From assembly GCA_004431415.1 (NCBI GenBank), contig QPMI01000482.1, positions 186,001 through 250,000 on the forward strand: 64,000 nucleotides of DNA. Reading direction: 5' to 3'. Position numbers and translations under genes: made by a program. Under the pieces are notes generated by a model, which had not been told where the DNA came from, ran no database searches, and saw only the letters and a program-made list of their open reading frames with translations. The stretch comes from Cyanophora paradoxa CCMP329. Its lineage: Eukaryota > Plantae > Glaucophyta. Shown here in pieces: positions 1-22,744 of this stretch (position 1 is its first letter; every line of letters starts with the position of its first letter).

Positions 1-307
1 ACATTCCGCTAATTATCTCGCGGACAGCGACCGTATCGGCACATTCCTAAGGGACAACTACGCTTTGGCGGAGGATAACACGAAATACATAATATGTGAC
101 GATCTGTTTAAGGATTGCTCAAATACGATGAGAGATGTTGATAGAAGAGCAGCGATAACAGGACGAGCTGTAAGCAATAAGGTGATGGAGGTGTTTAAGA
201 TCGGCTCGACTGTAAAAAAGGTTGGTGGAAAATCGAAGCGTGTTTATCTCGGTCTCACAAAGAACCGCGCTAACGATTTTGAAGACGATGACGAAGATGT
301 GGAATAA
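1..307 (+). CDS. 3' end of mirror copy of the D5-like primase-helicase (partial)
   Basis: Translation matches the C-terminus of 6284-9166. Confidence 0.9.
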   Translation, partial: HSANYLADSDRIGTFLRDNYALAEDNTKYIICDDLFKDCSNTMRDVDRRAAITGRAVSNKVMEVFKIGSTVKKVGGKSKRVYLGLTKNRANDFEDDDEDVE

Positions 308-378
308 AACTTATTGGAAAATATACTATTGATATCTTTTTTATGATCATGAACCGTAAGACTCGGTTCTTAATAGAA

Positions 379-688
379 GGTTACTTTAAGGTTTCTCGGA
401 GTTACTCGGAGTTACTCAGAGAGGTTACGCAGCGGTTCCGTTAATTTGTTACCATTTTCAGTATTGATATACCGAATTTCTCTTTATTTCACAGCTGTGA
501 GTTACGGTTACGCAACTTTTTGAATTCTTTCTGAAAATTTGGAGGGGGTCTTTTTATAGGTGAAGGTCTAAAACTTGCGTAACCGCGTAACTTGCGTAAC
601 CTCTACGACATTATGGTGTCATTTCTCTATTATTTTGGGTTACGTAACGTTTCTCCTTGCGTAACTTGTGTAACCTTAACGTAACCTT
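379..688 (-). repeat. GTTAC/GTAAC iteron block, mirror of 5902-6212
   Basis: Reverse complement of the block at 5902-6212. Confidence 0.9.
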
Positions 689-829
689 CTTATTAATACA
701 GATATCACATGTTCTCTCTTGTTATCATTTGTTGGCGTTATAGAATGTAGGTAAGACATCGGAAAAAGTGAAAAAATGACATCTTAACTACATATAAGGT
801 TGTTGTGATATATTCATTTGATAATTAAG

Positions 830-1054
830 ATGGCTTGCAAACTCCCCGAACGCATCGACATGGGTGAATATCTCATTAAAGACCTTCCGGAAGAGTTAAA
901 ACCACTTGCACGCAAGATGGACTTAAAAGGAATACGAGAATACTATGAGAGAACCTACCCTGATTTATACAAGAAAAAACAGCGTGTCGAACCATCGGAA
1001 TGCATCACTGTTAAGGTTCCAAAAGGCGTAAAGGTCAGAATTCAGAGAATCTAA
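830..1054 (+). CDS. Small hypothetical protein (mirror copy ends at 5536, - strand)
   Basis: ATG preceded by AAAAAATGAC (771-780); identical in both arms. Confidence 0.6.
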   Translation: MACKLPERIDMGEYLIKDLPEELKPLARKMDLKGIREYYERTYPDLYKKKQRVEPSECITVKVPKGVKVRIQRI

Positions 1055-2051
1055 CACGCTGAATAATATAAAAAACAATTGTAACGCATGATTAATAGAA
1101 ACAAAAAAACATTTAAAATGAAGAGCTTCTACGCTATCAGAGAGCATGACGCCCTTCTTTTTATACGCGATTCTTTGAGAATCCGGAAAACAGATGTATG
1201 GAGAAATTCGAAGACTTCTGTAAAGAATTTACCCAAATCGCTTATGGTAACACTGAAATACGAAGACCATCAAGAAAGCAAAAATTAAAAGACCTTTTTC
1301 AAAACATGATCTTGTCATTTGATGCTGATAATAGAAATACTAAATATCATAATACAGTCACAGGATCTGTTAGGGAACGTCTCCAAGAGAAATTAGCAAA
1401 ACGAAGAATTTCACATTAAACGCACTTTAAAAAGGGTCTTTTTGCAAACCTCCACAGAACCGTGTAGGTTTATGTTTCGATCTACGCAAACAGCTACAAT
1501 GTCCTGTATAGGTAGTTTTGAAAATTAAAGCGTTTTCACTCTTTCCTGTTCCGATAACATTCGCATTCTGAAAGAAATGACCTTAATATTAACTTCCTTA
1601 TTGCGTCGCGACCTTCCAATTGTTGTGATCTTTACCCAAAAGTTTGACAAAGTCTAAGATATGGATAAACTCGGAACGCGATATATCATTAGGTAAATCA
1701 AACGGCTCCGTTTCTATTTCCCAATAATTCACTTTGTAGAAATATAACAAACCGTCAGATCCCTTAGCATAATGTATATCGGGATTCTCTGTAAAATATC
1801 CGATTTGCTCAATTTCCATATTATGTCGCTATTATCTAATTCATTCATAAACATTATCAATCTGTCGATATTGATTTTAATTAAGGAAGTATTAACTGAA
1901 AACACGGGCTTTCCGTTGTACATATACGGCGTCTCCATCATTGCAATCAATCTTAGCACGAGCGTTAGGATGTCTCCCATGCCGCTTAAATGGTTTTCAT
2001 TTTTTGCCCGCTCAAAAATTGACGCCCCACAAGAACAAACCATAACCTGTA

Positions 2052-2561
2052 ATGCAACGCTCTGTTATGCAACGCGCTGTAATGGAGCAATTCACTACGT
2101 TTTTCACTCAAAACAACGTTATCTATAAAGATGTGTCGCATGTATTTGCTAAGAGTTTCGAAAGAGGTTATATGATGATCGCGAAATTAGCAATGCAAAC
2201 ACCTAAGATCGTTTATATTGCTTGTCTTAAAAAAGATGCTATCCCACATTTCAGGATTCGCGGTTTTGTTAAAAACGCTGTGGTCTTAATTAAAAACGAT
2301 GATTACTATGTATCTACTGAATTCGCTAAACATCACGTCCATGATTTCTTAACCATTCCATACAGTTGCTATGTCTGTTTCGATGATAAAGAAAGTGGCG
2401 TTAGATGTCCGGCATGCAATGCAACAGTTTGCTATAAATGTTGGGCTACCATGAGTTTAAACGGTGACCGAAAATGTCCGACATGTCGCAAACAGCTAAC
2501 GCATCCATTTATGGTCGAATCTAATGATGCTACATATGTATTCGTCGAAAAAGAGAATTAA
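2052..2561 (+). CDS. RING-finger protein, putative E3 ligase
   Basis: CYVC...CPACNATVCYKC...CPTCR; AAAAATTGAC at 2014-2023. Confidence 0.8.
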   Translation: MQRSVMQRAVMEQFTTFFTQNNVIYKDVSHVFAKSFERGYMMIAKLAMQTPKIVYIACLKKDAIPHFRIRGFVKNAVVLIKNDDYYVSTEFAKHHVHDFLTIPYSCYVCFDDKESGVRCPACNATVCYKCWATMSLNGDRKCPTCRKQLTHPFMVESNDATYVFVEKEN

Positions 2562-2745
2562 CACACTCTAAACCTCTTTCGAAATGCTATAATCCACATT
2601 GTTTACTTTTCCCCTTTGTGAATCAAACAAAAGAAGTAATCGGAACTATTTGCTTACTACCTTTTTTACATATTGTAGCCAAATAGTTTTGTCTCTTGTT
2701 AAGCACAGTGCTGATTTAAAGATAAATTATGTTAATTTATGAAAG

Positions 2746-3894
2746 ATGGCGCCAAAATTAACAACCGAAACTTTCATACAGAAAGCAAAAGTGAAACATG
2801 GAGAGGCAAGGTATAATTATGACTCTGTTGAATATGTTTCAGGTCTAACACCCGTTAACATATTCTGTAATACTTGTCAAAAAGTTTTCGCACAGAAGCC
2901 ACAATATCACCTTGCAAATAATGGTTGTCCATCCTGTGGAATCAAAGCCATTTCAAAGAAAAAACGAAATGTTTTAACTGACATGATAGCCAAAGCTAAA
3001 CAAATACATGGAGATCTTTACGATTACTCTTTCATTTGTGATTATGAAGGAATCGATAAAAAAGTTATCATTAGATGTAACACCTGTAAATCTGAGTTTT
3101 TGCAAACATTCAATAATCATTTAAGAAAAGCAGGCTGTAAATTGTGTTCTTCTAAACAAGGGGGTTTAAAAAATCGACTGACAAAAGAAGAAGTTTTAGA
3201 AAGATTTCGTGAAGTTCATGGTAATAACTATGATTATTCACATATGGATTTCCGAACTACAAGTATTCCTATAACTATCAAATGCAACAGTTGCAGTCGG
3301 CTTTTCGAGCAGAAACCTGAAAATCATTTTAAATCAGGTTGTCCCCATTGTGCATGTGCAAAATTGGGCAGGCAGCTACGAGTTACACAAGAATTGGCTA
3401 TACAAAGGTTTAGAGAAGTTCATGGGGACTCTTTTGATTACTCATTTATGGAATTCGAAACTGTAATGAAACCAGTTAAAATCATATGCAGGTCTTGTAA
3501 TACAATGTTTGAAAAACGCCCCTGTGATCATTTAAAAAGCGGCTGTGTTAATTGCAAAACATCTATATCGAAAGGAGAGCAAAAGGTTAAATCAGAGTTA
3601 AACTCTTTGGGAATCGAATTTTTTCAACAACATGTGTTTAAGGATTGCCGACATAAAAAACCTTTAAGATTCGATTTTTATATACCATCTTTAAAGGTCG
3701 CAATCGAATATGATGGACGACAACATGGGCAAATTATTAATTTCTTTGGAGGTAAAGAGGCATTTGAAGAAACACTTATAAGAGATGGAATTAAAAACAG
3801 ATTCTGTGAAGCAAATAATATAAGGCTTCTTCGGATTCCGTTTTATGTTAAAGACATTAAAGGAACTATCGATGACTTCTTTAAAAGTCTTTAA
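2746..3894 (+). CDS. Homing-type endonuclease: repeated Zn-ribbon modules plus C-terminal Vsr/DUF559-like PD-(D/E)XK domain
   Basis: Four repeats of HG-x-YDYS...CxxC...H...GCxxC; SKGE..., RFDFYIP, IEYDGRQH, RDGIKNRFC, LLRIPF. Confidence 0.85.
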   Translation: MAPKLTTETFIQKAKVKHGEARYNYDSVEYVSGLTPVNIFCNTCQKVFAQKPQYHLANNGCPSCGIKAISKKKRNVLTDMIAKAKQIHGDLYDYSFICDYEGIDKKVIIRCNTCKSEFLQTFNNHLRKAGCKLCSSKQGGLKNRLTKEEVLERFREVHGNNYDYSHMDFRTTSIPITIKCNSCSRLFEQKPENHFKSGCPHCACAKLGRQLRVTQELAIQRFREVHGDSFDYSFMEFETVMKPVKIICRSCNTMFEKRPCDHLKSGCVNCKTSISKGEQKVKSELNSLGIEFFQQHVFKDCRHKKPLRFDFYIPSLKVAIEYDGRQHGQIINFFGGKEAFEETLIRDGIKNRFCEANNIRLLRIPFYVKDIKGTIDDFFKSL

Positions 3895-4026
3895 GACAAA
3901 ACTATTTGGCTACAATATGTAAAAAAGGTAGTAAGCAAATAGTTCCGATTACTTCTTTTGTTTGATTCACAAAGGGGAAAAGTAAACAATGTGGATTATA
4001 GCATTTCGAAAGAGGTTTAGAGTGTG

Positions 4027-4536
4027 TTAATTCTCTTTTTCGACGAATACATATGTAGCATCATTAGATTCGACCATAAATGGATGCGTTAGCTGTTTGC
4101 GACATGTCGGACATTTTCGGTCACCGTTTAAACTCATGGTAGCCCAACATTTATAGCAAACTGTTGCATTGCATGCCGGACATCTAACGCCACTTTCTTT
4201 ATCATCGAAACAGACATAGCAACTGTATGGAATGGTTAAGAAATCATGGACGTGATGTTTAGCGAATTCAGTAGATACATAGTAATCATCGTTTTTAATT
4301 AAGACCACAGCGTTTTTAACAAAACCGCGAATCCTGAAATGTGGGATAGCATCTTTTTTAAGACAAGCAATATAAACGATCTTAGGTGTTTGCATTGCTA
4401 ATTTCGCGATCATCATATAACCTCTTTCGAAACTCTTAGCAAATACATGCGACACATCTTTATAGATAACGTTGTTTTGAGTGAAAAACGTAGTGAATTG
4501 CTCCATTACAGCGCGTTGCATAACAGAGCGTTGCAT
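4027..4536 (-). CDS. RING-finger protein (mirror copy)
   Basis: Identical to 2052-2561. Confidence 0.8.
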   Translation of the reverse strand: MQRSVMQRAVMEQFTTFFTQNNVIYKDVSHVFAKSFERGYMMIAKLAMQTPKIVYIACLKKDAIPHFRIRGFVKNAVVLIKNDDYYVSTEFAKHHVHDFLTIPYSCYVCFDDKESGVRCPACNATVCYKCWATMSLNGDRKCPTCRKQLTHPFMVESNDATYVFVEKEN

Positions 4537-4544
4537 TACAGGTT

Positions 4545-4991
4545 ATGGTTTGTTCTTGTGGGGCGTCAATTTTTGAGCGGGCAAAAAATGAAAACCATTT
4601 AAGCGGCATGGGAGACATCCTAACGCTCGTGCTAAGATTGATTGCAATGATGGAGACGCCGTATATGTACAACGGAAAGCCCGTGTTTTCAGTTAATACT
4701 TCCTTAATTAAAATCAATATCGACAGATTGATAATGTTTATGAATGAATTAGATAATAGCGACATAATATGGAAAATTGAGCAAATCGGATATTTTACAG
4801 AGAATCCCGATATACATTATGCTAAGGGATCTGACGGTTTGTTATATTTCTACAAAGTGAATTATTGGGAAATAGAAACGGAGCCGTTTGATTTACCTAA
4901 TGATATATCGCGTTCCGAGTTTATCCATATCTTAGACTTTGTCAAACTTTTGGGTAAAGATCACAACAATTGGAAGGTCGCGACGCAATAA
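4545..4991 (+). CDS. Hypothetical protein 148 aa (mirror copy 1598-2043 split by a 1-nt indel)
   Basis: Intact ORF in the right arm. Confidence 0.55.
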   Translation: MVCSCGASIFERAKNENHLSGMGDILTLVLRLIAMMETPYMYNGKPVFSVNTSLIKINIDRLIMFMNELDNSDIIWKIEQIGYFTENPDIHYAKGSDGLLYFYKVNYWEIETEPFDLPNDISRSEFIHILDFVKLLGKDHNNWKVATQ

Positions 4992-5169
4992 GGAAGTTAA
5001 TATTAAGGTCATTTCTTTCAGAATGCGAATGTTATCGGAACAGGAAAGAGTGAAAACGCTTTAATTTTCAAAACTACCTATACAGGACATTGTAGCTGTT
5101 TGCGTAGATCGAAACATAAACCTACACGGTTCTGTGGAGGTTTGCAAAAAGACCCTTTTTAAAGTGCGT

Positions 5170-5502
5170 TTAATGTGAAATTCTTCGTTTTGCTAATTTC
5201 TCTTGGAGACGTTCCCTAACAGATCCTGTGACTGTATTATGATATTTAGTATTTCTATTATCAGCATCAAATGACAAGATCATGTTTTGAAAAAGGTCTT
5301 TTAATTTTTGCTTTCTTGATGGTCTTCGTATTTCAGTGTTACCATAAGCGATTTGGGTAAATTCTTTACAGAAGTCTTCGAATTTCTCCATACATCTGTT
5401 TTCCGGATTCTCAAAGAATCGCGTATAAAAAAGAAGGGCGTCATGCTCTCTGATAGCGTAGAAGCTCTTCATTTTAAATGTTTTTTTGTTTCTATTAATC
5501 AT
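5170..5502 (-). CDS. Hypothetical protein 110 aa (mirror copy 1088-1419 split by a 1-nt indel)
   Basis: Intact ORF in the right arm. Confidence 0.5.
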   Translation of the reverse strand: MINRNKKTFKMKSFYAIREHDALLFYTRFFENPENRCMEKFEDFCKEFTQIAYGNTEIRRPSRKQKLKDLFQNMILSFDADNRNTKYHNTVTGSVRERLQEKLAKRRISH

Positions 5503-5901
5503 GCGTTACAATTGTTTTTTATATTATTCAGCGTGTTAGATTCTCTGAATTCTGACCTTTACGCCTTTTGGAACCTTAACAGTGATGCATTCCGATGGTT
5601 CGACACGCTGTTTTTTCTTGTATAAATCAGGGTAGGTTCTCTCATAGTATTCTCGTATTCCTTTTAAGTCCATCTTGCGTGCAAGTGGTTTTAACTCTTC
5701 CGGAAGGTCTTTAATGAGATATTCACCCATGTCGATGCGTTCGGGGAGTTTGCAAGCCATCTTAATTATCAAATGAATATATCACAACAACCTTATATGT
5801 AGTTAAGATGTCATTTTTTCACTTTTTCCGATGTCTTACCTACATTCTATAACGCCAACAAATGATAACAAGAGAGAACATGTGATATCTGTATTAATAA
5901 G

Positions 5902-6212
5902 AAGGTTACGTTAAGGTTACACAAGTTACGCAAGGAGAAACGTTACGTAACCCAAAATAATAGAGAAATGACACCATAATGTCGTAGAGGTTACGCAAGT
6001 TACGCGGTTACGCAAGTTTTAGACCTTCACCTATAAAAAGACCCCCCTCCAAATTTTCAGAAAGAATTCAAAAAGTTGCGTAACCGTAACTCACAGCTGT
6101 GAAATAAAGAGAAATTCGGTATATCAATACTGAAAATGGTAACAAATTAACGGAACCGCTGCGTAACCTCTCTGAGTAACTCCGAGTAACTCCGAGAAAC
6201 CTTAAAGTAACC
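5902..6212 (+). repeat. Iteron block R1, putative replication origin directly downstream of the primase-helicase
   Basis: Series of GGTTACG/GTTAC, core AAAGAATTCAAAAAGTTGCGTAACCGTAAC, then series of GTAAC. Confidence 0.85.
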
Positions 6213-6283
6213 TTCTATTAAGAACCGAGTCTTACGGTTCATGATCATAAAAAAGATATCAATAGTATATTTTCCAATAAGTT

Positions 6284-9166
6284 TTATTCCACATCTTCGT
6301 CATCGTCTTCAAAATCGTTAGCGCGGTTCTTTGTGAGACCGAGATAAACACGCTTCGATTTTCCACCAACCTTTTTTACAGTCGAGCCGATCTTAAACAC
6401 CTCCATCACCTTATTGCTTACAGCTCGTCCTGTTATCGCTGCTCTTCTATCAACATCTCTCATCGTATTTGAGCAATCCTTAAACAGATCGTCACATATT
6501 ATGTATTTCGTGTTATCCTCCGCCAAAGCGTAGTTGTCCCTTAGGAATGTGCCGATACGGTCGCTGTCCGCGAGATAATTAGCGGAATGTTCGAGGATGC
6601 ATTGGGGCGGATGGTCGATTATATGATTAACATCATGGTTTTTAAGCATGTCTATGAGAATCTCCATGTTTGCCCTGCGCCATTCACCATTTACGTCATT
6701 ATCGGGATTCAACAACCCGGTAAGGTCTTTATCCGCTTTCTTCTGTCCGGGCTTAGGTTCGACGGCATAGACCTGCTGAAATGGAACAGAACGGAAGCGG
6801 CGCGCTACTGCATTGTCGGGCTGATCAAATTCGAGGTTATTATTACAGAGGATGACGATAACAAACATCGGAGCAAATGAAATTGGTTCTTTGAAAAGGG
6901 TTCTTACTGTGATCTCATCACAACCTGTGAAATTCTTGATTTGTCCCGCCAACAGTTTGCTACCCGTGTTTGGTTCGTTTGTATGGACGAGCCTAACACC
7001 TTGCTTATTCGCAAGTTCCGGAATCATTCCATTACCTTTATCCTCCTTCGTGAAAATCCCAATGCTCATATTTCGTGAGTAGTCGCCAAATGTCTTATGC
7101 ATGAAATTTTCGATTACGCTCTTTCCGTTCGAGCCGATACCGGTAAACATATAGAAAAACTGCATGTTATTTTTACCCGTTAGAGACTTGGCATAAACAG
7201 CCTTAATGTATCTTGCAAGTTCGACATTGTCACCTGTGATATCCATGTAGAAGTCATTGAGTCGTTTGACCTTCTCAGGATCCACCGGAATATCATAGTT
7301 ATAACAGACTGTCTTAGTCATCATATCAGAAGAACGACCATTACGGAACTCAAACGTGTTAAGATCATAAACGCCATCGTCAAAGCCAACAACATTCGCG
7401 ACTGAATCCAACCTATCGGCAAATGTCTCATCGTAAAGGTCATGAGAGAGATATGTAAGAAGTCCTTTCGTGTAACCTCCACAGTTAAGTTTTTGCGCAA
7501 TTTTTGCACAGGCGGCTGCCTTTACTGCGAATTCCTTTTTATCGCTCTGTTCCTCCGCCTTTGCCGCCTTGGTAGCCCAATGGTTCTCCCGGTCTAAGTA
7601 TGCTTTCCCGACAACCTCACCGATAAGAGTTATCATACCACCATCATACTTATTATCTACCTTCCAAAATCCGGTTTTCTCATTCAGGATCAACCACAGA
7701 CCACGTGAAAACCGCACTTTGTAGCCAATTAATGCTTTACAGATCTTGCTAACAGGAAGTGGGAGACCTTGACTTAATAGCGTCTTATCCATTTCTAATT
7801 TGATTTGAGCCATCTTATCATTCATGGCGCTAACATCGGAATAGTCATTCTCATCCATACACACCTCCTCATCGATAAATGCAAACTGTCGGCTTGGTTT
7901 AAACAGTCCATAATACGTGTCCGGGTTATCCTCTCTCAGATAATGCACAAGTGAGCCGAAAGTTATAGTTTTGTTTTCGGAACCGGATTTTTTGCCTTTG
8001 CGGATACTCATCCATTTGTTCGCGCATTCATCATAATCATACTTAGGGCTTTTCTCGGAGTATTCGTGAAACAGCGCCTCCTGTTTCGTGGGTGGTATAT
8101 TGTTTTCCTCTCCAACATTCGCGATTGCGAAACCAACATTAAGCCAACCTTCGTATGTATCCGATCTTTCAGCACTAAGACCCATCACGACTTCTCTCAG
8201 TTTCTCAAATGAAACGTTATTAGACTCCTCCGGCTGCTCTTCACTCTCCGTTTTCTTTGTTGTTTTTTTGCTTGTCGTCGCCGTCTCCTTCTTCTTTGTT
8301 GTGGTCTCCTTCTTGGTCGTCTCCTTCTTGGTCGTCTCCTTCTTGGTTTCAGTCTTGCCTTCCTCCTTCATTTGCTCTTTTGCAACTTCCGCCTTTGCCG
8401 ACCGTTCGTTTTTCTCATCTTGGGTTAGGTTAGCATCAAACATATACATGTTTGATTCATCGATAAGCACAGTGGGGCAATCCGTGAATTGCGCGAAAAA
8501 GTCGCTGTCATACATGGTTTCACAATCCACGAATTTGGTAAATACTACATCCTTATCAACATCGCGTTTAGTCTTGTTTTGGGAATCCAACCATTTACCC
8601 TTGCAACTACCCAGACAAACAAGCGCCTGCCTTGTCTTATAAACGAGTGGGTCATAATCCACCTTTGGCGTAAGTCCGATTACATTTAAGAATTTCGGGA
8701 TGTCTTCATGACGACAGCACAGATCGGTAAAGACGAAATGCCCCGATACCTTAAATTGGGTCACATCTTCCTTAACGAAATGGATAGGACGATGACGCAC
8801 GGACACAGCAATGGTAGCACCGGTGAGTTCGTGTAGTCTGTTGCGCATCTCACGGATGAATTCATCGGCTTCCTTGTAGTTATCGGCAACATCCGGTTTA
8901 AGATCTACGTAGCCGTCATAATCCAGATAAACACGGGTGATTTCGTTCGGCTGAATGCATTCGGCGTAGGTCGGTTTTTTGCCTTTCTTCAAATCATCAT
9001 TAATCCTTTCCGTAATCTGATGGTCGAAATACTCTATGACAGTCTCGCTGTCAGTATTCGGAGTGAGACAATGGAGAAAAGCCCCATAATTATGTTTTTC
9101 AGGTGTAAATTTGCACAGGTTACCGAGTCTCTCACAGGGAGTTGCGATTTTTGTGTTAGCGTTCAT
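6284..9166 (-). CDS. D5-like AEP primase / PriCT-2 / SF3 helicase
   Basis: YLDYD and SGHFV primase motifs; YEGWLNVGFAI (PriCT-2); GFDDGVYDL (D5_N); Walker A GIGSNGKS, TNEP, LCNN, RRF. Confidence 0.93.
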   Translation of the reverse strand: MNANTKIATPCERLGNLCKFTPEKHNYGAFLHCLTPNTDSETVIEYFDHQITERINDDLKKGKKPTYAECIQPNEITRVYLDYDGYVDLKPDVADNYKEADEFIREMRNRLHELTGATIAVSVRHRPIHFVKEDVTQFKVSGHFVFTDLCCRHEDIPKFLNVIGLTPKVDYDPLVYKTRQALVCLGSCKGKWLDSQNKTKRDVDKDVVFTKFVDCETMYDSDFFAQFTDCPTVLIDESNMYMFDANLTQDEKNERSAKAEVAKEQMKEEGKTETKKETTKKETTKKETTTKKKETATTSKKTTKKTESEEQPEESNNVSFEKLREVVMGLSAERSDTYEGWLNVGFAIANVGEENNIPPTKQEALFHEYSEKSPKYDYDECANKWMSIRKGKKSGSENKTITFGSLVHYLREDNPDTYYGLFKPSRQFAFIDEEVCMDENDYSDVSAMNDKMAQIKLEMDKTLLSQGLPLPVSKICKALIGYKVRFSRGLWLILNEKTGFWKVDNKYDGGMITLIGEVVGKAYLDRENHWATKAAKAEEQSDKKEFAVKAAACAKIAQKLNCGGYTKGLLTYLSHDLYDETFADRLDSVANVVGFDDGVYDLNTFEFRNGRSSDMMTKTVCYNYDIPVDPEKVKRLNDFYMDITGDNVELARYIKAVYAKSLTGKNNMQFFYMFTGIGSNGKSVIENFMHKTFGDYSRNMSIGIFTKEDKGNGMIPELANKQGVRLVHTNEPNTGSKLLAGQIKNFTGCDEITVRTLFKEPISFAPMFVIVILCNNNLEFDQPDNAVARRFRSVPFQQVYAVEPKPGQKKADKDLTGLLNPDNDVNGEWRRANMEILIDMLKNHDVNHIIDHPPQCILEHSANYLADSDRIGTFLRDNYALAEDNTKYIICDDLFKDCSNTMRDVDRRAAITGRAVSNKVMEVFKIGSTVKKVGGKSKRVYLGLTKNRANDFEDDDEDVE

Positions 9167-9345
9167 TTTCAGCGATTGGTTCTTAACTTTCTCAAAGAAA
9201 ATAATCCGAGGAATTGATGAATTCCTTTTTACCTTATCTTCTCAGCAAGTCCTTAAATGCTTTTCGGTTGCCCATGGCACTTTAATGATTTGGCTTAGGT
9301 TATAAAAAAGAGAAAGTAAAGCGTCATTTTTTCACCTCCTACCAA

Positions 9346-10851: not shown

Positions 10852-10871
10852 GAAGAACAATGTTAAATAAT

Positions 10872-11180
10872 AAGGTTACGTTAAGGTTACACAAGTTACG
10901 TAGGTAAAAACGTTACGTAACCCAAAATAATAGAGAAATGGCACCATAATCTCGTAGAGGTTACGCAAGTTACGCGGTTACGCAAGTTTTCACTATTTTA
11001 TCTGAGAAAGACCCCCGCCATCTTTTTAAAAGAATTCAAAAAGTTGCGTAACCGTAACCGCCAGTGTTAAAAATACTAAATCTCCTGTATTATAACACTG
11101 AAAATCGTCTTACAATTGTAAAATATCTACGTAACCTGTTGCGTAACTCATCTGTAACTTCTTGTAACCTCTATGTAACC
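10872..11180 (+). repeat. Iteron block R2
   Basis: Direct repeat of R1. Confidence 0.85.
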
Positions 11181-11822: not shown

Positions 11823-11830
11823 TTTTTACA

Positions 11831-12331: not shown

Positions 12332-12466
12332 TTATTGTTTAAGTTTTAAAATTTGCTTCATTTTTTCATCGCTTCACAAGCGGATCCTATCGCTTCTCGT
12401 GACATGATCTTATGTATCGCACCCGCTACCGTTTGATAACAGATGACATTTTTAAGATGTTATAAT

Positions 12467-12786
12467 AAGGTTACGTTAAGGTTACACAGGTTACGTAAGT
12501 AAAAACGTTACGTAACCTTAAAAATACCAAAAAGACACCATAAATCTCGTGAGGTTACGCAAGTTACGCGGTTACGCAAGTTTTAGACCTTCACCTATAA
12601 AAAGACCCCCAGCCATTTTTTAAAGAGAATTCAAAAAGTTGCGTAACCGTAACCTCAATGGATCTAAATGGTTATTTTTATCGATTACCACACTGAAAAT
12701 GGTGTGGTTTATCGAAAAATCACTACGTAACCTCACCTGTAACCCCGCGTAACCAAGTGTAACCGCCGTGTAACTGTTGTGTAACC
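12467..12786 (+). repeat. Iteron block R3
   Basis: Direct repeat of R1. Confidence 0.85.
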
Positions 12787-12867
12787 GCAGTTTTCCAATT
12801 GTTTAACCAAAACTTTACAGAGAAGGATTTATGAAAAATTGACAATCTTTTTAACATCTGATTACAA

Positions 12868-13329: not shown

Positions 13330-13404
13330 AGATAAGCAATTATCATGTATCATTTTTAGTTATCATGATATCATAGTATAACAGTGATTAAATGTAAGAA
13401 TAAC

Positions 13405-13714
13405 AAGGTTACGTTAAGGTTACACAAGTTACGTAAGTAAAAACGTTACGTAACCTAAAAGTATAGAGAAATGACACCACAATGTCGTAGAGGTTACGCA
13501 AGTTACGTGGTTACGCAAGTTTTAGACCTTCACCTATAAAAAGACCCCCAGCCAAATTTTCAGAAAGAATTCAAAAAGTTGCGTAACCGTAACTCACAGT
13601 GACAAAATAGCGATAAATCAACCATTTTAACACTGAGAATGGTCTTAGTAATCGTAAAATATCTACGTAACCCATCACGTAACTCCATGTAACTTTTTAA
13701 ACATCAATGTAACC
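13405..13714 (+). repeat. Iteron block R4
   Basis: Direct repeat of R1. Confidence 0.85.
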
Positions 13715-14416
13715 TTCACATAAAAGTACGATCGAATACATAGAAGAGCAAAACAGTTTAATACAAGCAATTCGACAAAATGCACCACAGATACAATTTT
13801 ATAACCGTAAAAAACAAAATCCCAGTGAAAGGATTCCTTTGTTTTCTAACAATAACATTGATCAGCTATTATAACAAAAGGACATAATATATCATTTTAC
13901 TACAATAGCTTTCTACAATGACATCTCCCCAAGATTCCCCCTATTATTAAAGTGGACTCAAGGTTGACTCATATTAATCGTAAAAGTAGTAATAGTATAT
14001 GGATTTTGTTACGAATTCAATACAAGGGTTGAATAAGTGGGTTGAGTTGACTCAAATTTCACAGGAAATAACAATGAATCAGAATATAAAATGCATTTTT
14101 GAATCAACTACACCAACTAACACTGAGATTTTCACAATATAAGAGGTCCTTACTGAATATGGTATGTGTCACACCCAAAATCCTAAGGGTCCCCCCTTAG
14201 ACTCAACAAAACAATGATAAAATCATATAAGTTTCATGTATAATTACGATTGGATTCAATAAGAGATCGATTTGTTTTATTAACAAATGAATCATTTATG
14301 GATCTTAATCGAGTTTAGCGATATATTTCCGATTAAATGAATTAAATTTAATTAAATTTAATCGAGAAAGTACATGAATATAATATCGATTAAATCAATT
14401 AACTTTTAGACCAATC

Positions 14417-14700
14417 ACACATAGTAAAATGCGGAGTTTTAACCAGAGGCAAGATCTAATTGAGATTCAGTTATATTATTCGGAAATATATACAGATTAT
14501 CGATTAACTCAGTAAGACTAATCGGAAAATAAGAGAAATTTACGATAAAATATCGAAAAGAATACAAAATAATCGAAATAATTGAATATTCGATAAGATA
14601 TACACAGATTATCGATTGATTGAAATAGAATATACGAGATATATCAACAAAATCAATTAAGATTAAGCCGAGGGTTAAAACTCCGCATTTTACTATGTGT
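14417..14700. repeat. 284-bp MITE-like unit with perfect 28-bp inverted repeats
   Basis: ACACATAGTAAAATGCGGAGTTTTAACC at 14417-14444, reverse complement at 14673-14700; AT-rich interior. Confidence 0.8.
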
Positions 14701-15070
14701 AACCACTGGTGGACTGAAATCTGTGACATATCAGTATGCTAAGAGTCTTGTTGATGGTATTGCAGCAGAGACCAAAAACGAAAACAAGATCAAGGAACAG
14801 CCAATCACAAAGGAGAAGGTTGAGAAGAAACCAGAGGTAACCCATGAAGTAATCCCTGAACCTGTTCATGTCGCAAAAGACTCACCAACAGAACTGATTG
14901 CAAAGACAATCGATTACCAAGACTCCAACAAAACGGATTTGCCGGTTCTCAATAAATTGATCCTCCGGGTTGCCACTTCGCAGGCTGATCCAGTCAACTC
15001 GATTCCAAATGCTGCCCCAATGGTCTCAGGGTTTGCAAAGCTTGGTATTAGACCCGGTTATCGCCGTTAA
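14701..15070 (+). pseudogene. 5'-truncated gene, paralogue of 21757-22234
   Basis: GIAAETKNENKI...ILRVATSQADPV...MVSGFAKLG vs GIAVETKMENKI...ILRIASSSADPV...MLSGFTKLG; no N-terminal ATG, frame abuts the 28-bp IR. Confidence 0.6.
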
Positions 15071-15347: not shown

Positions 15348-15605
15348 ATGCCAATCAGTGAGGCTCAGAAGCGTGCTACTTACCGTTATCGTAAAACTGA
15401 AAAAGGTCAGGAATATTTAAAAAAGTATAATGCGAAATTCGCGAAGCAAATGCGTGATTTATATCATACTGATGATTGTTACAGAGCCATGAGAATCGTT
15501 GAGAGTTCCCAGCGTCTCTATGTTTCCAATGCAGTCTGCTTTGTTAAGTATCTCTATGGTGTCCCCTATTCTAACCGTGGTCGCAAATCGAAATATGTCT
15601 GTTAA
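15348..15605 (+). CDS. Small basic protein
   Basis: MPISEAQKRATYRYR N-terminus; AAAATTTGAC and CTTAAAGA upstream. Confidence 0.6.
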   Translation: MPISEAQKRATYRYRKTEKGQEYLKKYNAKFAKQMRDLYHTDDCYRAMRIVESSQRLYVSNAVCFVKYLYGVPYSNRGRKSKYVC

Positions 15606-15846: not shown

Positions 15847-18800
15847 ATGCCTCGTCCTTCAAATCTAAGATTGAAGAAGCGCAAGACAAAGTTCCTTGGT
15901 AGTTTATCCTATGGATATGCCAATGACCTGCTCACAGAAGAGCAGTTCAACTATTTCCTTCATGAGATAGCCTTCAAGAGACCGAGAGAGCAGAAGTTAT
16001 TGGATCTTGAAGAAACTCTTGAGGGAATTCTCAGACCGAATGAAAGGGTGCAGAGATTTAATGATGAATTCGATAGGTTGGGCAACATTGATGCTGAGAG
16101 GCCCCAAGGGAGAACCAGAGAGGAGAGGAAGCAAGCCAAAAGAGCGGAGCGCTTTGATCGCAAGCAGAATAAGAAGGCTAAACGTTCCGCTCGTTCCCAG
16201 AAGAATGTGGAAAAGCAGCAAAGTAAGCAGTTCAAAGCGCTGGTAAGGAGAATCATAAGGGATATTGAGGCCCAGGATGGCGATACAGTCTCGCTTCGTG
16301 TGAGGTTTTACCGAATTCCTGAAGACTTCAATAACCTCCCAAACAACTACGATGTTGTTATCCACGAAGACACACCTTACATTGAAACACAAAAATCCGG
16401 AAAACGCGCATTGATGCTTTCCTGCCCAAGCAAGTGCTGGTGAGATTGCTTGAACAGGTGCAAGAGGACTTTAATAACTTCCTTGCATTGTGGACTCTGA
16501 ACGAGATTGCTTCCTTCCTGATTTCTATTGGGCAAAGCAACCCTCGCAATCGAGACTATCAATTCGTTAAGGTTTTCACGAATGATGCGCCCAATGGATC
16601 AGACATCAAGTATCCAGAGGTGATGACAATCGAGGAGATTATTGTCAGCGATAACAAAACAGTATACCCTTTGAATGAACGAGTTCTGCGAGATGGGCAG
16701 GCTCCAAAAATCGTTTCTCGTTTCGTGAAATACACCCTCAATGGTCAGGCTAAGTGTGTGATGGACCAAATATGTCCCGATGATTCACTTACCATCAAAG
16801 ATTGTTTAATCGAAGCATTACATCAGGTTCTATGCAAAGGGTTTGAGTATGCCCGCAGCATCAAGAAGTATAAGAAGGTCAACTACTCCAAAGACTGGCT
16901 CTTTGCTCAGATCAAGGGATATGAACCTAAGCCTGATTCCGATTGGGGAGTGAGTTTTGATGAGCTTCTTCCTTTCTTGAAAAAGTGGCGCATCAGGTTC
17001 ATTGCAATTGGAAAGGATGACAAGGTTATTCATACTCTTTCCTTCAAACCGAATCGAACCAACTCTCACTTAGTTCCCGCAAGTGTTTATGTGCAGATTG
17101 CAAACGACCACGTTTATGTATTAAATAAGGATCTCAGTAAACTGGTTCGTTCTTTCAATGGAACTGGCGCCCGTGAAACCAAGAAGAGTATGGGTTCAGC
17201 AGCCATGAAATACAAGATCAAAACACAGTTCAACGATAACAGCTTCTTTGCTTACAGCGAGGAGGATATCATCAAGATCATTGCCAGAGAGAAAGATAGT
17301 AGTTCTGAAAAAATTAAGATCACATACAACAAGCCACTACTTGAGTTGTTGGGAAGCTTCCGAAAGGCTAATCACGAGGTTCACACTTCCATTACTGATG
17401 AGGGAACAATAACCTACATTCACTACACAATAGAGGATAAAGATGTAATTATCCTTCCACCAGGCAACATGGTGGATATGGAAAATATTGATGTGAACCT
17501 TGCAGATGATGCGCATCGCAAGTTGTTTGATGAGATGAGTCAGATGATGTATAGGGCGCTTATCAACAAACCCTACAAGAGCAAATATAATCCAGAAACA
17601 TATGCAGCATTTACTAAAGGGCAACAGAGTGCATTGACTGGGTTCTTTGGATCTGCCTCTGAGGTCCGAACAATGGTAGAGAACATTGCCTATGGATCCA
17701 TTGATACTCACAAGCTCGACATTTCCAAAGCATACACACACATCGTTTCGAAAGTGCTTAAGGTGTTTCCAGTTTTCAGTTCATTTGATAGATTCGAAAA
17801 AGTCAAAGTGTCTTGCAGCTCGGACATCGAAGACAATTCGTTCTATTCCGTGAAAGTGAAAGCCAAACACTTCAAAGCATTCAGAAATTATGGTGAGGCG
17901 AATACCTTGAATCAATACAAGAGGATTCTCGTCGATTCAAAGTATAACCTGATGTATGGTGAGGTTTTGAAAGAGTTTTACGAGGATATTAAGGATGACA
18001 TCAGCATTGAGGCAGTTCTAAGACCTTATCGGATTGCCGAGAATGTCACCTTGCAGGCTTTCAAGCAGTTGTATGCAAGTCAGCTTTCGACCAAGGAGAA
18101 GAAAGACATTGCCAACCATCACATTGGTCTATTTGGTAAGAAGTCCCAGCGAAAAGCAACCACCTACACCTTTTTCAATAAAAATGATGCTCTGAATTTC
18201 ATTGAAGAGAATGGAGGGACCCTGAAGTTTATAAGTTTCGATCAAGAGAAGCCAACACACACATCAGTTAAGAATGAGAAGGACATTAAATCGCCCATGA
18301 TTTGGTATGTGAACCAGGAAGAACAAGAACGGGCTTTCATTGATGGTTTCCTGCCAATGCAGTGCGTGATTTACTCCACCATGCGAGGCATCATGTATCG
18401 CCTATGCAAGAAATTGCTCTCTGAGGGAGTGGGAGTCCTTGCAATCAAGACCGATGAGCTGACAATCGATAGACCATATCCATTCGAGCAGTTTGACCGA
18501 AACCTATTCGAGAACACTGGAAAGTTTGATGTGAAGCCAGCAAACATGAACTCGATAACCCACAGTAAGAGGACTTCCAAAAAACCAAAGAGCCACATGA
18601 TCACATTTGATCGACTCAAAACTCGTTCCAAACCTTTCATCAATGTTGAAAAGATTGTTCACAAGGTTCACAAGTTCCAGGATGAGTATGACCTCCCAGC
18701 AATCGTAAATGCTTTGGATGGGCAAGGTAATGTGCTGATTAAAGGAGTGAAACCGGGAACTGGTAAGACTACTTTGGCAAAGGCAATGGCCAAGAAGTAT

Positions 18801-20038
18801 GGTAAGAAATGCTTGTTCGTTGCGCCTACTAATAAGAGATGCAAGGATTTGCGAATGGAACTAAAAGCAGAGTGGGGGCAGGATGCTCCTGAGGTGATGA
18901 CTATTTATCGAGCCTTGAATTTGAATGTTGATGATGAGAGAATGAAGGGAAATGTTGGGAAGAAGGTTTCGGAATTATCTAAGTACGATTGCTTTGTTAT
19001 TGATGAGATCTACCAGTTTGAGATTAGGGAATTGGAATCTCTGTGCGATGTGATGACTGTGCAGTTCCCAGACAAACTCTACATCGCAACAGGCGACCCC
19101 TACCAGAACCCACCCATCCAATTCATAACAGTCAATCAACGAGATTACTACAACAAGATCTTCGATAGACTTTTCAAGAACGAGGTTTACCTGCAGGTTG
19201 GAAAGCGTCATAAACTGGCTGCAGATCAGAAGAAATTAGACCAGTTATGGGAGGACTTATTCAGGACTGAACTACCAGTTTCTATTGCTGCCAGACGATT
19301 GGGCTTGAAAGTAGTTGATACATTGGAGAAGGGTGATATCTCAGTATGCAATTCAAACCGCAAGTGTGCAGAGGTGAACAACAAAATGCATAAAATGATT
19401 CATGGAGAGGATCCTGTATATAAGACAGGTGTGGAGCTGATTGCAAAGGTGCGAATGACAACAAGTGAGGGCATCATTCAGCGGGGCTTTGTTTACGAAG
19501 TGGTCGAATACAAAGCCAAGGAAATTCTCACTCTCAAAGACATTGATTCGGGTGAAGTGCATACTCTAAAAAGCGAAGATATCAAGTATTTCGCATTGAC
19601 CCATGCTTTCACCTGTCACATCATTCAGGGTGACACAATCAGGGATTCTCGTGTTGTAATTCACGAGACTGGGTCCCCATATGTTACTGCTGAGTGGTTC
19701 TATGTTGCAGCAACTCGAACCCAGAATCTCTCAGATACTGTGATTTTCGTTGATAAATCCGAGGCAGCCACAATGGTGAAAACGAAGGAGGATCAAGCTC
19801 AGAAAATCGATTCCTACAAATCCAAGACAAACAAGCCAATCGGGAGTTCTCCTTGGCAGAGTATGTTGATTGGGACTGGTTCAAAAAGCAGTATGGGAAG
19901 CAATTGGGGCGATGCAGAAGGTGCTTTGATATTATGGATTTCGAAGAAGCCACTGTTGATCGGGAGAACAATGCTATCGCTCACATTTCTCGAAACTGTT
20001 TCTTGTCACATTGTAGGTGTAACTGTTCAGCCCAGTAA
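15847..20038 (+). CDS. Divergent family-B polymerase + SF1 (RecD/PIF1-like) helicase + C-terminal HNH fusion, ~1400 aa, two apparent frameshifts (~16390, ~19823)
   Basis: LDISKAY, KDIANHHIGLFG, IKTDE; GVKPGTGKT, IDEIYQ, GDPYQNPP, TCHIIQG, YVAATR; CRRC...TVDRENN...H...N...CRCN. Confidence 0.8.
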
Positions 20039-21096
20039 TGGAGAATATTCTATCATACAAAAAATACAAACAGAAGCTCATTAGTGAAGGGAAGGAATTT
20101 GATGAGGCGGAACTGAGAAACAAGTATAAGAATTCCGAACTGCATCAAATTTTCAAGAAGCCTAGGAAAAAGACTACGTTTTTAAGAATAGTTGCCCAGC
20201 CATACTCATTTCAGGTTGATGTCATGTTTTTCAGAAAGTTTAAGACAGCAAATTATGGATACATTAAAGCGCTTAGTTTCATTGACATTCTAAGTAGAAA
20301 GGCATTTGTGTATGCTTTCAAGACCAGCGAAGAGATTCCGGGAATACTTAATAAATTCAAGGGCGAAGCAGGTAAGGTTGTAGGATTGGCAGGGGATAAT
20401 GAGTTTTCCAGTGCGGTTTATCGAACTTGGTGCAGTGAAAATGGTGTCGAATTGTATACAGATGTTGCGAAAGAAGATCACATTTCTGCTGGGAATAAAC
20501 TTGGGATAATCGATCGATTCACTCGAACCTTCAAACAATACATGAACAAACTCATGGTCTCGAGGAATACTTCGAAGTGGGTCGAATTAATCCCAGATGT
20601 GCTAAAGGCTTACAATAACTCGCCTCATTCATCACTGAACAATGATTCCCCAAACCAAGTGTTTGCAAGTCCACAGAAGCAAATGTTTATTTTCCTAAAA
20701 ACCACCAAGCATAACATGGATGTTAAAGAGAATCAACCCGATAAAATCAAACCAGGAGATACTGTAAGAGTTTTAGAGGAGAGAGGTGCATTCTCAAAGG
20801 AAGGCCCCAGGTTTAGTCAGAAGATTTACAAAGTAGCTGGGAAAGATGCTAATCGATTCAAGGTGCTTGAAGATAATGGAGATGATGCAGAGGAATTAAA
20901 GAGACGTTTTAAGCAACAAGAGTTACAGAAAGTGAAACGAGATGAGATAATGAAAATTCCACAGCAAATGAGGATTCAAGCTGTAAAGAAAACAAACACA
21001 GTGAATCGAAAAGTTGCAAAAGAGGGAATCAAACCAAATCGCAGCAAAGTTGTTAGAAAAAGGTATCAATTAAGAAGCGGATTAACTAAAAGGTAG
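20038..21096 (+). CDS. Retroviral-like (rve) integrase
   Basis: FQVDVMF, IDILSRKAF, GDNEF, GIIDRFTRTFK, YNNSPHSSL, GDTVRV. Confidence 0.9.
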   Translation: MENILSYKKYKQKLISEGKEFDEAELRNKYKNSELHQIFKKPRKKTTFLRIVAQPYSFQVDVMFFRKFKTANYGYIKALSFIDILSRKAFVYAFKTSEEIPGILNKFKGEAGKVVGLAGDNEFSSAVYRTWCSENGVELYTDVAKEDHISAGNKLGIIDRFTRTFKQYMNKLMVSRNTSKWVELIPDVLKAYNNSPHSSLNNDSPNQVFASPQKQMFIFLKTTKHNMDVKENQPDKIKPGDTVRVLEERGAFSKEGPRFSQKIYKVAGKDANRFKVLEDNGDDAEELKRRFKQQELQKVKRDEIMKIPQQMRIQAVKKTNTVNRKVAKEGIKPNRSKVVRKRYQLRSGLTKR

Positions 21097-21097
21097 T

Positions 21098-21756
21098 TGG
21101 GTGTAATGCATATAACTTCGATTGATTAGATTTTAGATATAACTTCGATTAAATAAAATAGATTGTGACTGAGGCTTACTGAGATTTACTGAGATTGGGG
21201 ATTGGGTTACTGGGAATCATGCGGATATTGCTTGAAGGGGCAAATTATATTGGGGTAATTTTTGGGTGTAATGCTCACAAATTTGGGTGTAATGCATATA
21301 ACTTCGATTAAATAAAATAGATTGTGACTGAGGCTTACTGAGATTTACTGAGATTGGGGATTGGGTTACTGGGAATCATGCGGATATTGCTTGAAGGGGC
21401 AAATTATATTGGGGTAATTTTTGGGTGTAATGCTCACAAATTTGGGTGTAATGCATATAACTTCGATTAAATAAAATAGATTGTGACTGAGGCTTACTGA
21501 GATTTACTGAGATTGGGGATTGGGTTACTGGGAATCATGCGGATATTGCTTGAAGGGGCAAATTATATTGGGGTAATTTTTGGGTGTAATGCTCACAAAT
21601 TTGGGTGTAATGCATATAACTTCGATTAAATAAAATAGATTGTGACTGAGGCTTACTGAGATTTACTGAGATTGGGGATTGGGTTACTGGGAATCATGCG
21701 GATATTGCTTGAAGGGGCAAATTATATTGGGGTAATTTTTGGGTGTAATGCTCACA
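21098..21756 (+). repeat. 159-bp tandem repeat, four copies plus a partial
   Basis: ATGCTCACA recurs at 21271, 21430, 21589 and 21748. Confidence 0.95.
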
Positions 21757-22234
21757 GCTCAGCTCTGCTGACGAAAACGCTATTTTAGATAAGATCCCAA
21801 ATTCGCGGACAAAGAAAAGCAAAACTAGTAAACTGAAGGATACTGACGATGGTCCGCTGTATGTATCAGAGACTGGTAATCGTAGCAGATATTTCATAAA
21901 AACAGTGACTGGGTTGAAAACAATTTCAAAGAAGCGTGCTGGTGATCTTATTGCTGGTATAGCGGTTGAGACGAAAATGGAAAACAAGATTTTAAACGAA
22001 CCGATTGCTAAGACCAAAATTGATAAAAAGCTTTCTCCTCCATCATCTGCTGTTCCTGCTAAGACGATCGTCGCAATCCCCCAGGTGGATGAGAATGCTA
22101 GCGAATTACCTGTAGCAAACACATCGATCTTGCGCATCGCCTCTAGCAGCGCTGATCCTGTCGGGCCGTCGATCGAATACAAACCAATGTTAAGTGGTTT
22201 CACTAAACTTGGACTACGTCATCGGTGGGAATAA
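21757..22234 (+). pseudogene. 5'-truncated PLV-type gene cut by the tandem array
   Basis: Open frame SSADENAILDKIP...GLRHRWE starts at the array end without an N-terminal ATG. Confidence 0.6.
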
Positions 22235-22299
22235 TTAGCGTCTAGCTAGAACCTGAACTCGAGTATGTAATTAGATTCCGATGATATAGTAATTACGTG

Positions 22300-22744
22300 T
22301 AGCTTAACCCTTGAAACCTCTTTGTTTTTTAGATTCGAAATACACACAACTAACGTCTAGAATTGAGCTAAACGTGTTTCCTCTGTTAGCTTCATTGTAC
22401 TCATTAATATCGTCTAGAATTGAGCTAAACATGTTTTCTCTGTTAGATTCAAAGTACACAAAATTAACGTCTAGCTGTATCTGAAGATTATTCTGAGACC
22501 AGCGCTTTGGGGGTCCGCCTAAAATCACTGCTATATCTTTTGCAAAATCGATCGGACTAGACGTTAGATACTACCTAGCGGTTGCTGGATGGTTGGTTTG
22601 GAGAGGTTGTGGTGGTAGACGTAACGAAGGGATGGAAGAGAATGTGTGTTGGAAGGCGTTGGAGTGTGTGGGTTGGGGTGGTTTGGAGGAGTGAGGGTGA
22701 GAAAGAGGTGGGTGGGCTGGAACCCCCACTATCTCATTTTTTTT
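22300..22744. repeat. Right terminal repeat of element 1, related to element 2 TIRs
   Basis: Shares CTAAACGTGTTTCCTCTGTTAGCTTCA subrepeats, GGTAGACGTAAC and a TCTCA(T)n end. Confidence 0.8.

What the first reader, a model, noticed from the sequence alone, without database searches (positions are those of the whole stretch)
1..22744. Capsid-less composite replicon with PLV-type terminus: candidate new giant-virus/PLV satellite
Seen: in 22.7 kb there is no MCP, penton or packaging ATPase. Instead there are two replication modules (D5 primase-helicase with iteron blocks; PolB-SF1-HNH plus integrase), RING cargo and a right end related to the neighbouring PLV's TIR. Known: transpovirons and other satellites lack capsids and depend on helper viruses. 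Inference: an integrated satellite that could be mobilised or packaged in trans by the element-2 family and expressed during giant-virus infection.
Basis: partly seen in the sequence, partly recalled or inferred. Interest (0 to 1): 0.88.

Follow-up and report, generated by a model that had tools for sequence, protein, structure and literature searches.

The report
Fold-back replicon nested inside polinton-like element
This stretch is likely two viral elements, one inside the other, and not one capsid-less satellite: a mirror-duplicated primase-helicase unit with likely origin repeats abuts a cut gene of a multi-copy polinton-like element that runs off the window, so whether that outer element has capsid genes is unknown.

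Summary
The parts list is right: no capsid, penton or packaging ATPase in 1-22,744, two replicases, and a right end collinear with the neighbouring PLV's TIR. The one-element reading is not supported. (1) Positions 1-2,694 are an exact inverted copy of 3,894-6,590 around a single-copy endonuclease gene, and short-read contigs back this. (2) Gene X is cut at 14,700/14,701: a 262-aa homologue and a sister copy carry the missing half. (3) Contig depths differ by part: D5 module about 7-8 copies, PolB-helicase-integrase about 11-15, the stretch between them hundreds. Best reading: a D5 replicon with phage-type iteron blocks and a hairpin end has inserted into a Tlr1/transpoviron-type PLV element. 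That element's left part lies outside the window, so 'capsid-less' cannot be judged for it. Nesting, double replicases and capsid-less TIR fragments are already in 2026 preprints. The new lead is the inner unit. If its mirror is complete, it is a 22.8-kb palindrome with no capsid or integrase gene, close to PLV genome size, and its variants seem to come in pairs. Packaging in trans and giant-virus induction are untested.

The parts
1..2694 (.). Left arm of a fold-back: inverted copy of 3,894-6,590, running off the window inside the 3' end of a second D5 gene
   Evidence: 0 substitutions, 3 one-base gaps; the contig over the RING gene has twice the spacer depth in 3 of 3 DNA runs
2746..3894 (+). 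382-aa zinc-finger endonuclease (homing type), sole gene of the single-copy spacer 2,695-3,893
   Evidence: PHROG 559 E 4e-75; one 1,259-nt contig per run at depth 89/33.5/30, reaching 30 nt into each arm
4027..4536 (-). RING-finger ORF, 169 aa (mirror copy 2,052-2,561)
   Evidence: Pfam zf-C3HC4 E 5e-6
4545..5760 (.). Three small ORFs of unknown function (148, 110, 74 aa)
   Evidence: No Pfam or PHROG hit
5890..6210 (+). Iteron block directly 3' of D5: 7 GTTAC, A/T core, 8 GTAAC; likely origin (mirror copy 380-700)
   Evidence: the same motif lies 3' of primase-helicases in 29 of 37 tested IMG/VR loci
6284..9166 (-). 960-aa D5-type primase-helicase (PriCT-2, D5_N, SF3/DUF5906)
   Evidence: 23-31% identical to giant-virus-type D5; about 7-8 copies by contig depth
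9346..13329 (.). Cargo: two more RING ORFs (10,417-10,851 +; 11,831-12,316 -), a DUF5710 ORF (12,868-13,329 +) and four unknown ORFs
10860..11180 (+). Iteron block 2
12460..12790 (+). Iteron block 3
13390..13715 (+). Iteron block 4
13920..14700 (.). Very high-copy non-coding repeat; likely the end of the inner element; 14,417-14,700 folds as one long hairpin with 28 perfect terminal pairs
   Evidence: summed depth about 275-490 times single copy in bin 13,885-14,418; fold z -10; contigs of X20 and X22 stop matching at about 13,920 and at 14,700
14701..15070 (+). 3' half of gene X, cut at 14,700/14,701
   Evidence: 63% identical to residues 135-262 of the 262-aa P0126; residues 1-122 match nowhere in the window; a loose end in X15 supplies the missing motif
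15348..15605 (+). 85-aa basic ORF; the window allele differs from that of most PolB-family copies
   Evidence: tables 3 and 5
15847..20038 (+). Tlr1-like protein: likely vOTU, pPolB palm (motif C KTD), Pif1/RecD-type SF1 helicase, C-terminal HNH-like domain; the two frame breaks are window errors
   Evidence: the contigs laid at 16,424 and 19,821 carry one extra base in 3 of 3 DNA runs
20038..21096 (+). rve integrase, 352 aa, about 30% identical to element 2's
21137..21756 (+). 159-bp tandem array, 3.9 identical copies
21749..22234 (+). Gene X', paralogue of X (43% aa), lacking the N-terminal part of P0126
22240..22744 (.). Right terminal repeat, collinear with element 2's TIR
   Evidence: depth about 2 times X' in X1 (28.7 vs 14.1) and 1.4 times in X15
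22745..22750 (+). Predicted 6-bp target-site duplication (partner not in the window)
   Evidence: element 2 shows a 6-bp duplication; junction contig 22,714-23,345 is single-copy

Best explanation
The region is likely two nested elements: an outer multi-copy polinton-like element (Tlr1-type PolB-helicase fusion, rve integrase, PLV-type terminal repeat) whose gene X is cut at 14,700, and an inner D5 primase-helicase replicon that is mirror-duplicated and likely inserted there. Outer element: the integrase likely joins the TIR ends to host DNA with a 6-bp duplication. The fusion protein would replicate the excised linear DNA by protein priming and strand displacement, or only unwind it if the palm (KTD for DTD) is dead. 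About 11-15 near-identical copies point to recent spread. Its left part, with or without capsid genes, lies beyond position 1. Inner element: D5 likely binds the GTTACG iterons, melts the A/T core and primes replication. The hairpin at 14,417-14,700 would be its terminus. A fold-back during replication likely replaced one half of a parent genome with a mirror of the other half, leaving only an endonuclease gene at the centre. With no integrase or capsid gene in the arm seen, it would depend on proteins of other resident elements. The repeated blocks likely also drive cargo shuffling. Shown: gene content, fold-back, cut gene, depth differences. Inferred: direction of insertion, origin function, terminus, trans-dependence.
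For: Cut gene. The 30 loose letters before 14,701 in X15 (table 7), translated by hand in X's frame, give HRNRYFIR, matching NRNRYFIR in P0126 and NRSRYFIK in X'. Single-contig depths: spacer 89/33.5/30, host junction 96/32/22, D5 core 717-745/234/138-151, PolB-INT 1015/478/243. One 4,612-nt contig spans PolB-INT with 1 other letter in X1 and X15. A joint at PolB-family depth (1108/241) skips 15,341-15,600, and at 15,476 only about 93 of 2,288 depth in X1 carries the window letter, so most sisters differ from this copy left of PolB. Fold-back. Origins; none of 79 giant-virus-type D5 loci exceeds 8 pentamers per 350 bp, against 15 here. PLV kinship of the outer unit: the same PolB-SF1-then-INT order in L080, L081, L085, L087, L097, L098; L097 also has Ulp1 protease, penton-like and collagen-fibre ORFs, and L095 is a complete TIR-bounded PLV with this integrase family.
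Against: The 14,700/14,701 junction itself is not shown as bridged in the truncated contig tables, and the loose end comes from one contig in one run. The other end of the insertion and its target duplication are outside the window. D5 (7-8) and PolB (11-15) copy numbers are close enough that some sisters could carry both. Contig depth is a rough measure, contigs drop rare variants, and the runs may all be one strain. The high-copy repeat could be an unrelated miniature transposon. Palm homology is weak by profile comparison (E 0.04), and both structure predictions were too poor to use (pLDDT 33 and 40).
Confidence: 0.65

Rival explanations
1. One composite capsid-less satellite with both replicases spreads as a unit between two PLV-type TIRs and is packaged by the element-2 family.
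For: No structural gene in 22.7 kb; TIR collinear with element 2's; module copy numbers within a factor of two.
Against: Gene X is cut at the border; most PolB-family copies have another allele left of PolB; the iterons are confined to the D5 part (13 vs 9.9 expected in 13,751-22,744); the left end is unseen.
Confidence: 0.12
2. The D5 block is a decayed fragment of an endogenous giant virus, duplicated passively, next to a PLV end.
For: D5's listed IMG/VR relatives are largely from giant-virus bins or long contigs; RING genes and the endonuclease are common giant-virus cargo (recalled; endonuclease hit in L036).
Against: Only 23-31% identity; no other giant-virus core gene; D5 is intact in several copies; iteron blocks are missing from 79 of 79 such loci but typical of small phage-type replicons.
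Confidence: 0.1
3. The inner unit is the replication arm of an ordinary capsid-bearing D5-type PLV or virophage; the fold-back is a local, one-off inverted duplication of a few kb and its capsid genes lie just left of the window.
For: D5-type PLVs and nested PLVs are described (10.1101/2025.10.09.676808 passages; 10.64898/2026.07.28.741278 passages); only 2.7 kb of the mirror is visible; the spacer is single-copy.
Against: All 12 listed joints in the D5 module sit at about 2 or 4 times single copy in X1 and X5 (1.5-2.0 or 3.3-4.7; X15 is noisier, 1.3-5.3), none at 1, as expected if arms come in pairs.
Confidence: 0.1
4. The fold-back is a long-read assembly chimera.
For: The arms are identical apart from three one-base gaps; the window has indel errors.
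Against: In 3 of 3 DNA runs the spacer contig ends 30 nt inside each arm (one base under the tool's 31-nt bridging rule, but where a contig must end at a repeat), and the arm contig has double depth.
Confidence: 0.03

Closest known systems
Tlr1 and PLVs with Tlr1-like helicases (PMC5499653, PMC11161782; passages seen)
   Same: pPolB palm fused to an SF1 helicase with a C-terminal HNH domain, upstream Cys/His motifs, rve integrase next to it, TIR
   Different: Tlr1 and those PLVs carry capsid genes; here none is seen, but the element is cut by an insertion and by the window edge
Transpovirons (PMC7031253, passages seen)
   Same: Same fusion protein type, a TIR of about 500 bp, a tandem repeat 3' of the helicase, no capsid gene seen
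   Different: This one is integrated in a cell genome in about 11-15 copies and has an rve integrase; the three transpoviron core genes other than the helicase were not identified; association with giant-virus particles is untested
Nested and double-replicase polisuviruses (10.64898/2026.10.13.758929 section 13; 10.64898/2026.07.28.741278 sections 5 and 7)
   Same: Nested elements, pPolB together with D5, AEP-SF3 modules without integrase near endonuclease genes, capsid-less fragments that keep TIRs, RING genes, terminal palindromes on non-pPolB elements
   Different: The sections read do not describe a mirror-duplicated whole arm, paired arms, or repeated iteron blocks between cargo genes
P4/SaPI-type phage satellites and their primase-helicase origins (recalled)
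   Same: Inverted iterons around an A/T core directly 3' of an SF3 primase-helicase; the same hexamer occurs in IMG/VR loci
   Different: Eukaryotic host, giant-virus-like D5, four blocks per arm, no integrase in the arm, helper unknown
Snap-back defective genomes of DNA and RNA viruses (recalled; one search listing)
   Same: One end duplicated in mirror image, structural genes lost, helper needed
   Different: Here integrated and apparently inherited in several copies; full mirror not shown

Membership tests
Polinton-like virus (outer element) | MCP, minor capsid and packaging ATPase genes | tested here: inconclusive
   None in 14,701-22,744, but the element continues outside the window
Polinton-like virus (outer element) | Terminal inverted repeats with a 6-bp target duplication for rve-type elements | tested here: inconclusive
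   One end is collinear with element 2's TIR, depth suggests two per element; the partner end is not in the window
Tlr1-like replicase | pPolB palm fused to an SF1 helicase with a C-terminal homing nuclease | tested here: met
   SF1; palm motifs B and C align in register with element 2's pPolB, weak score; HNH-like tail matches L085 and L087
Tlr1-like replicase | rve integrase | tested here: met
   Pfam rve E 0.008-0.03; 218 relatives, conserved acidic residues
Transpoviron | About 7-kb linear element without a capsid module | tested here: inconclusive
   8.0 kb is visible from the cut gene to the TIR; full length unknown
Transpoviron | Propagates in giant-virus or virophage particles | not testable with these tools
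   No particle or infection data
Endogenous giant-virus fragment (inner element) | Other Nucleocytoviricota core genes beside D5 | tested here: not met
   None among the ORFs of 1-14,700
D5-type PLV/virophage (inner element) | Capsid module and integrase or recombinase | tested here: not met
   Absent from spacer and right arm, 2,695-14,700; the left side beyond 2.7 kb is unseen
P4/SaPI-like satellite (works-like comparison) | Iteron origin 3' of a primase-helicase | tested here: met
   (sequence pattern only; binding untested)
P4/SaPI-like satellite (works-like comparison) | Packaged by a helper's capsid | not testable with these tools
   Only a size coincidence: predicted 22.8 kb against 23.4 kb for element 2

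The most novel reading that the evidence does not exclude
The inner unit is a 22.8-kb palindromic satellite replicon: two mirror arms, each with a D5 primase-helicase, four phage-type iteron origins, RING cargo and a hairpin end, and no capsid or integrase gene. About four such palindromes exist in this genome, sized to fit a PLV capsid and moved by resident PLV integrases: a snap-back parasite of polinton-like viruses, and a eukaryotic counterpart of SaPI/P4.
Probability: 0.25. Interest if true: 0.8.

Novelty: new variant of a known kind. Interest (0 to 1): 0.5.

Why it matters
Surveys of endogenous protist viruses start from capsid genes (PMC10120064 passages), so capsid-less replicons are under-counted. 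A 2026 preprint proposes that AEP-SF3 replicases move on their own but names no origin sequence in the section read. This locus offers a candidate origin, shared with phage replicons, a candidate terminus and a multi-copy family on which to test that idea. If the palindrome is complete and packaged in trans, it adds a parasite of PLVs to the host / giant virus / PLV system. If not, it is an ordinary nested PLV locus and a warning that 'capsid-less' calls at window edges are unsafe.

Tried and rejected
No whole genome is held, so the left end could not be read. Single-protein scans of IMG/VR with PolB-SF1 and D5, the two-sequence integrase alignment, a degenerate integrase pattern and the hairpin arm found nothing. 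The word-indexed protein search with PolB-SF1 gave no hit among 5,348 candidates. Both AlphaFold jobs were too poor for a fold search, so no ORF was tested structurally for a jelly-roll fold; the ESM Atlas did not answer. Rfam: 0 matches in 1-23,000. The sigma-70 scan was at chance level. No RNA holder listed; the few contigs of the guessed-RNA runs X20 and X22 say nothing on expression. The idea that the 111-aa ORF is a free copy of D5's C-terminal domain got no BLAST support. A palindrome that includes the PolB module was rejected on one data point (window allele at single-copy depth at 15,476 in X1). Earlier scan notes: none. A D5-profile search of the 51 iteron loci hit only 3; Pfam was needed.
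Full report
Observation. The region 1-22,744 is A+T-rich (37-40% G+C, spacer 33%) against 68% in the host flank. It holds a 960-aa D5 primase-helicase, an SF1 helicase fusion, an rve integrase, three RING paralogues and a zinc-finger endonuclease. No structural gene was found. Pfam hit none in 20 ORFs while finding Pox_A32 in element 2. Ten capsid, penton and ATPase queries hit 0 of 492 peptides (low sensitivity). No open frame outside the four big genes exceeds 184 codons. The right end aligns with element 2's TIR over about 510 bp. A single-copy contig crosses the end at 22,744 into host DNA in 3 of 3 DNA runs.

What was missed: the fold-back. Positions 1-2,694 mirror 3,894-6,590 with no substitution and three one-base gaps. 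The 1.2-kb spacer holds only the endonuclease gene. In X1, X5 and X15 one 1,259-nt contig covers the spacer at single-copy depth (89, 33.5, 30) and ends 30 nt inside each arm, one base under the tool's bridging rule. The contig over the adjacent RING gene has depth 189.5, 64.5, 41.5. The duplication is therefore very likely real. The window begins inside a second D5 gene, so the element's left end is not visible.

What was missed: the cut gene. 14,701-15,070 and 21,749-22,234 encode paralogues, X and X' (43%). A profile search of 1.84 billion proteins found one clear relative, P0126, 262 aa. X matches its residues 135-262 at 63%, and residues 1-122 match nowhere in the window. A loose end before 14,701 in one X15 contig, translated by hand, gives HRNRYFIR, the motif that P0126 and X' have at that point. 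So other copies carry X uncut there, and here it is cut exactly at the edge of a 284-nt hairpin (14,417-14,700; z -10).

What was missed: copy number. From single contigs, relative to spacer and junction: D5 core about 7-8, PolB-INT about 11-15, X' about 14, TIR about twice X' in X1; summed depth at 13,885-14,418 is several hundred-fold. The tool warns that summed depth is no copy number, and the runs may be one strain. PolB-INT collapses into one 4,612-nt contig with one other letter in X1 and X15, so the copies are nearly identical. The two frame breaks in the window's PolB gene are assembly errors. A joint at PolB-family depth skips 15,341-15,600, and in X1 the window allele at 15,476 is single-copy. 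Most sisters therefore differ from this copy just left of PolB.

Outer element. The fusion protein has conserved Cys and His motifs, palm motifs A-C with KTD for DTD, a Pif1/RecD-type helicase and an HNH-like tail. This is the Tlr1-like helicase of PLVs and transpovirons (PMC5499653 and PMC11161782, passages); the vOTU label rests on those passages and on recalled motifs. The integrase has 218 relatives. Of 22 loci fetched with integrase alignments I examined the 12 longest. Six have PolB-SF1 upstream of the integrase (L080, L081, L085, L087, L097, L098), five have an element-2-type pPolB, and one is a distant retroelement-like hit. L095 is a complete 14.8-kb TIR-bounded PLV with capsid-like, penton-like and ATPase ORFs. 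L097 has penton-like, Ulp1 and fibre ORFs. L080 (11.6 kb) and L081 (17 kb), both from one giant-virus bin, show no recognisable capsid gene; L085, L087 and L098 are too short to say. Capsid-bearing and apparently capsid-less relatives both exist, so I put the outer element's capsid status near even.

Inner element. Five blocks (four per arm) each hold 7 GTTAC, an A/T core and 7-9 GTAAC; the first lies about 75 bp 3' of D5. The pattern of three GTTACG hexamers hit 51 IMG/VR loci, and 49 of 51 also have at least three pentamers in each orientation. 49 had a long ORF ending nearby. I scanned 37, dropping one very long ORF and 11 judged look-alikes by length and spacing. 29 of 37 are primases or helicases, 23 with the same DUF5906 domain as the window's D5; 6 had no family and 2 were repressors. 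Some of the 37 are near-duplicates. None of 79 giant-virus-type D5 loci exceeds 8 pentamers per 350 bp, against 15 here. This supports origin function by analogy with P4/SaPI origins (recalled); binding is untested. Sister copies show joints between blocks (12,621 back to 11,204; 588 to 444), which fits cargo shuffling. One joint at about 3.4 copies links 13,908 to 13,942, so the D5 side and the high-copy repeat are joined in other copies too.

Pairing. All 12 joints listed within the D5 module lie at 1.5-2.0 or 3.3-4.7 times single copy in X1 and X5, and 1.3-5.3 in X15 (two X15 rows, 2,066-2,507 at 99.6 and 11,768-11,800 at 70.2, are read and fall in that range). None is at one copy in X1 or X5. 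That fits arms inherited in identical pairs, about four palindromes, but contigs drop rare variants and recent duplications would look the same. A full mirror would span 22,810 bp; element 2 is 23,392 bp. The size match is suggestive only.

Prior work. 10.64898/2026.07.28.741278 (sections 5 and 7, passages) reports nested PLVs and virophages, capsid-less fragments with TIRs and target duplications, pPolB together with D5, and terminal palindromes on non-pPolB elements. 10.64898/2026.10.13.758929 (section 13, passages) reports second replicases, integrase-less AEP modules near endonucleases, and transpoviron-like EVEs. PMC13215967 (abstract and first part of Results) notes complete pPolB elements without structural genes. 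PMC12721341 was seen as abstract only; PMC12220804, PMC10120064, PMC7031253 and 10.1101/2025.10.09.676808 as passages. Six searches listed no paper whose title or seen text describes a mirror-duplicated D5 replicon or iteron blocks in PLVs. The library lacks most subscription papers, and the preprints' supplements, which I could not see, may bear on this.

Verdict. The outer element is a new member of the Tlr1/transpoviron-type PLV lineage with unknown capsid status. The inner fold-back D5 replicon is the part worth following (novel case 0.25). Overall interest 0.5.

Noticed in passing
window 31,323-54,714: Element 2 is a complete PLV: 573-bp perfect TIRs, 6-bp target duplication, pPolB, rve integrase, A32 ATPase, a capsid-like gene with a frame break near 40,386, two penton-like ORFs, three HNH-AP2 genes, a patatin and a 1,321-aa fibre with an S74 chaperone domain; its PolB end has about 9-16 times single-copy depth.
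   Followed up: partly
L081 and L080 (IMG/VR, one giant-virus bin): 17-kb and 11.6-kb contigs, 16-17% G+C, with pPolB(HNH insert)-SF1 plus the same integrase family and no recognisable capsid or ATPase gene; candidate integrase-bearing transpoviron-like elements.
   Followed up: partly
window 14,167-14,173: Loose ends in all four runs show that other copies of the high-copy repeat continue here with tandem 9-mers built on GTCAC; the window copy looks like a deletion between such repeats, possibly of a second iteron type.
   Followed up: no
window 14,953-15,843: Gene X and the 85-aa ORF region have far higher depth than PolB, and X5 shows another sequence following the PolB start codon region, pointing to further sister families in this genome.
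   Followed up: no
L102-L152: The GTTACG iteron triple with inverted partners recurs 3' of unrelated primase-helicases (DUF5906, VapE, Prim-Pol, DUF927) in IMG/VR; a shared origin motif across helicase families.
   Followed up: partly
window 23,115-24,436: The host flank next to the insertion site is itself a repeat of roughly ten-fold depth, with a 346-aa ORF at 23,603-24,643.
   Followed up: no
L095:1-14788: Complete 14.8-kb metagenomic PLV with 76-bp TIRs, pPolB, this integrase family and a full capsid-like module.
   Followed up: partly
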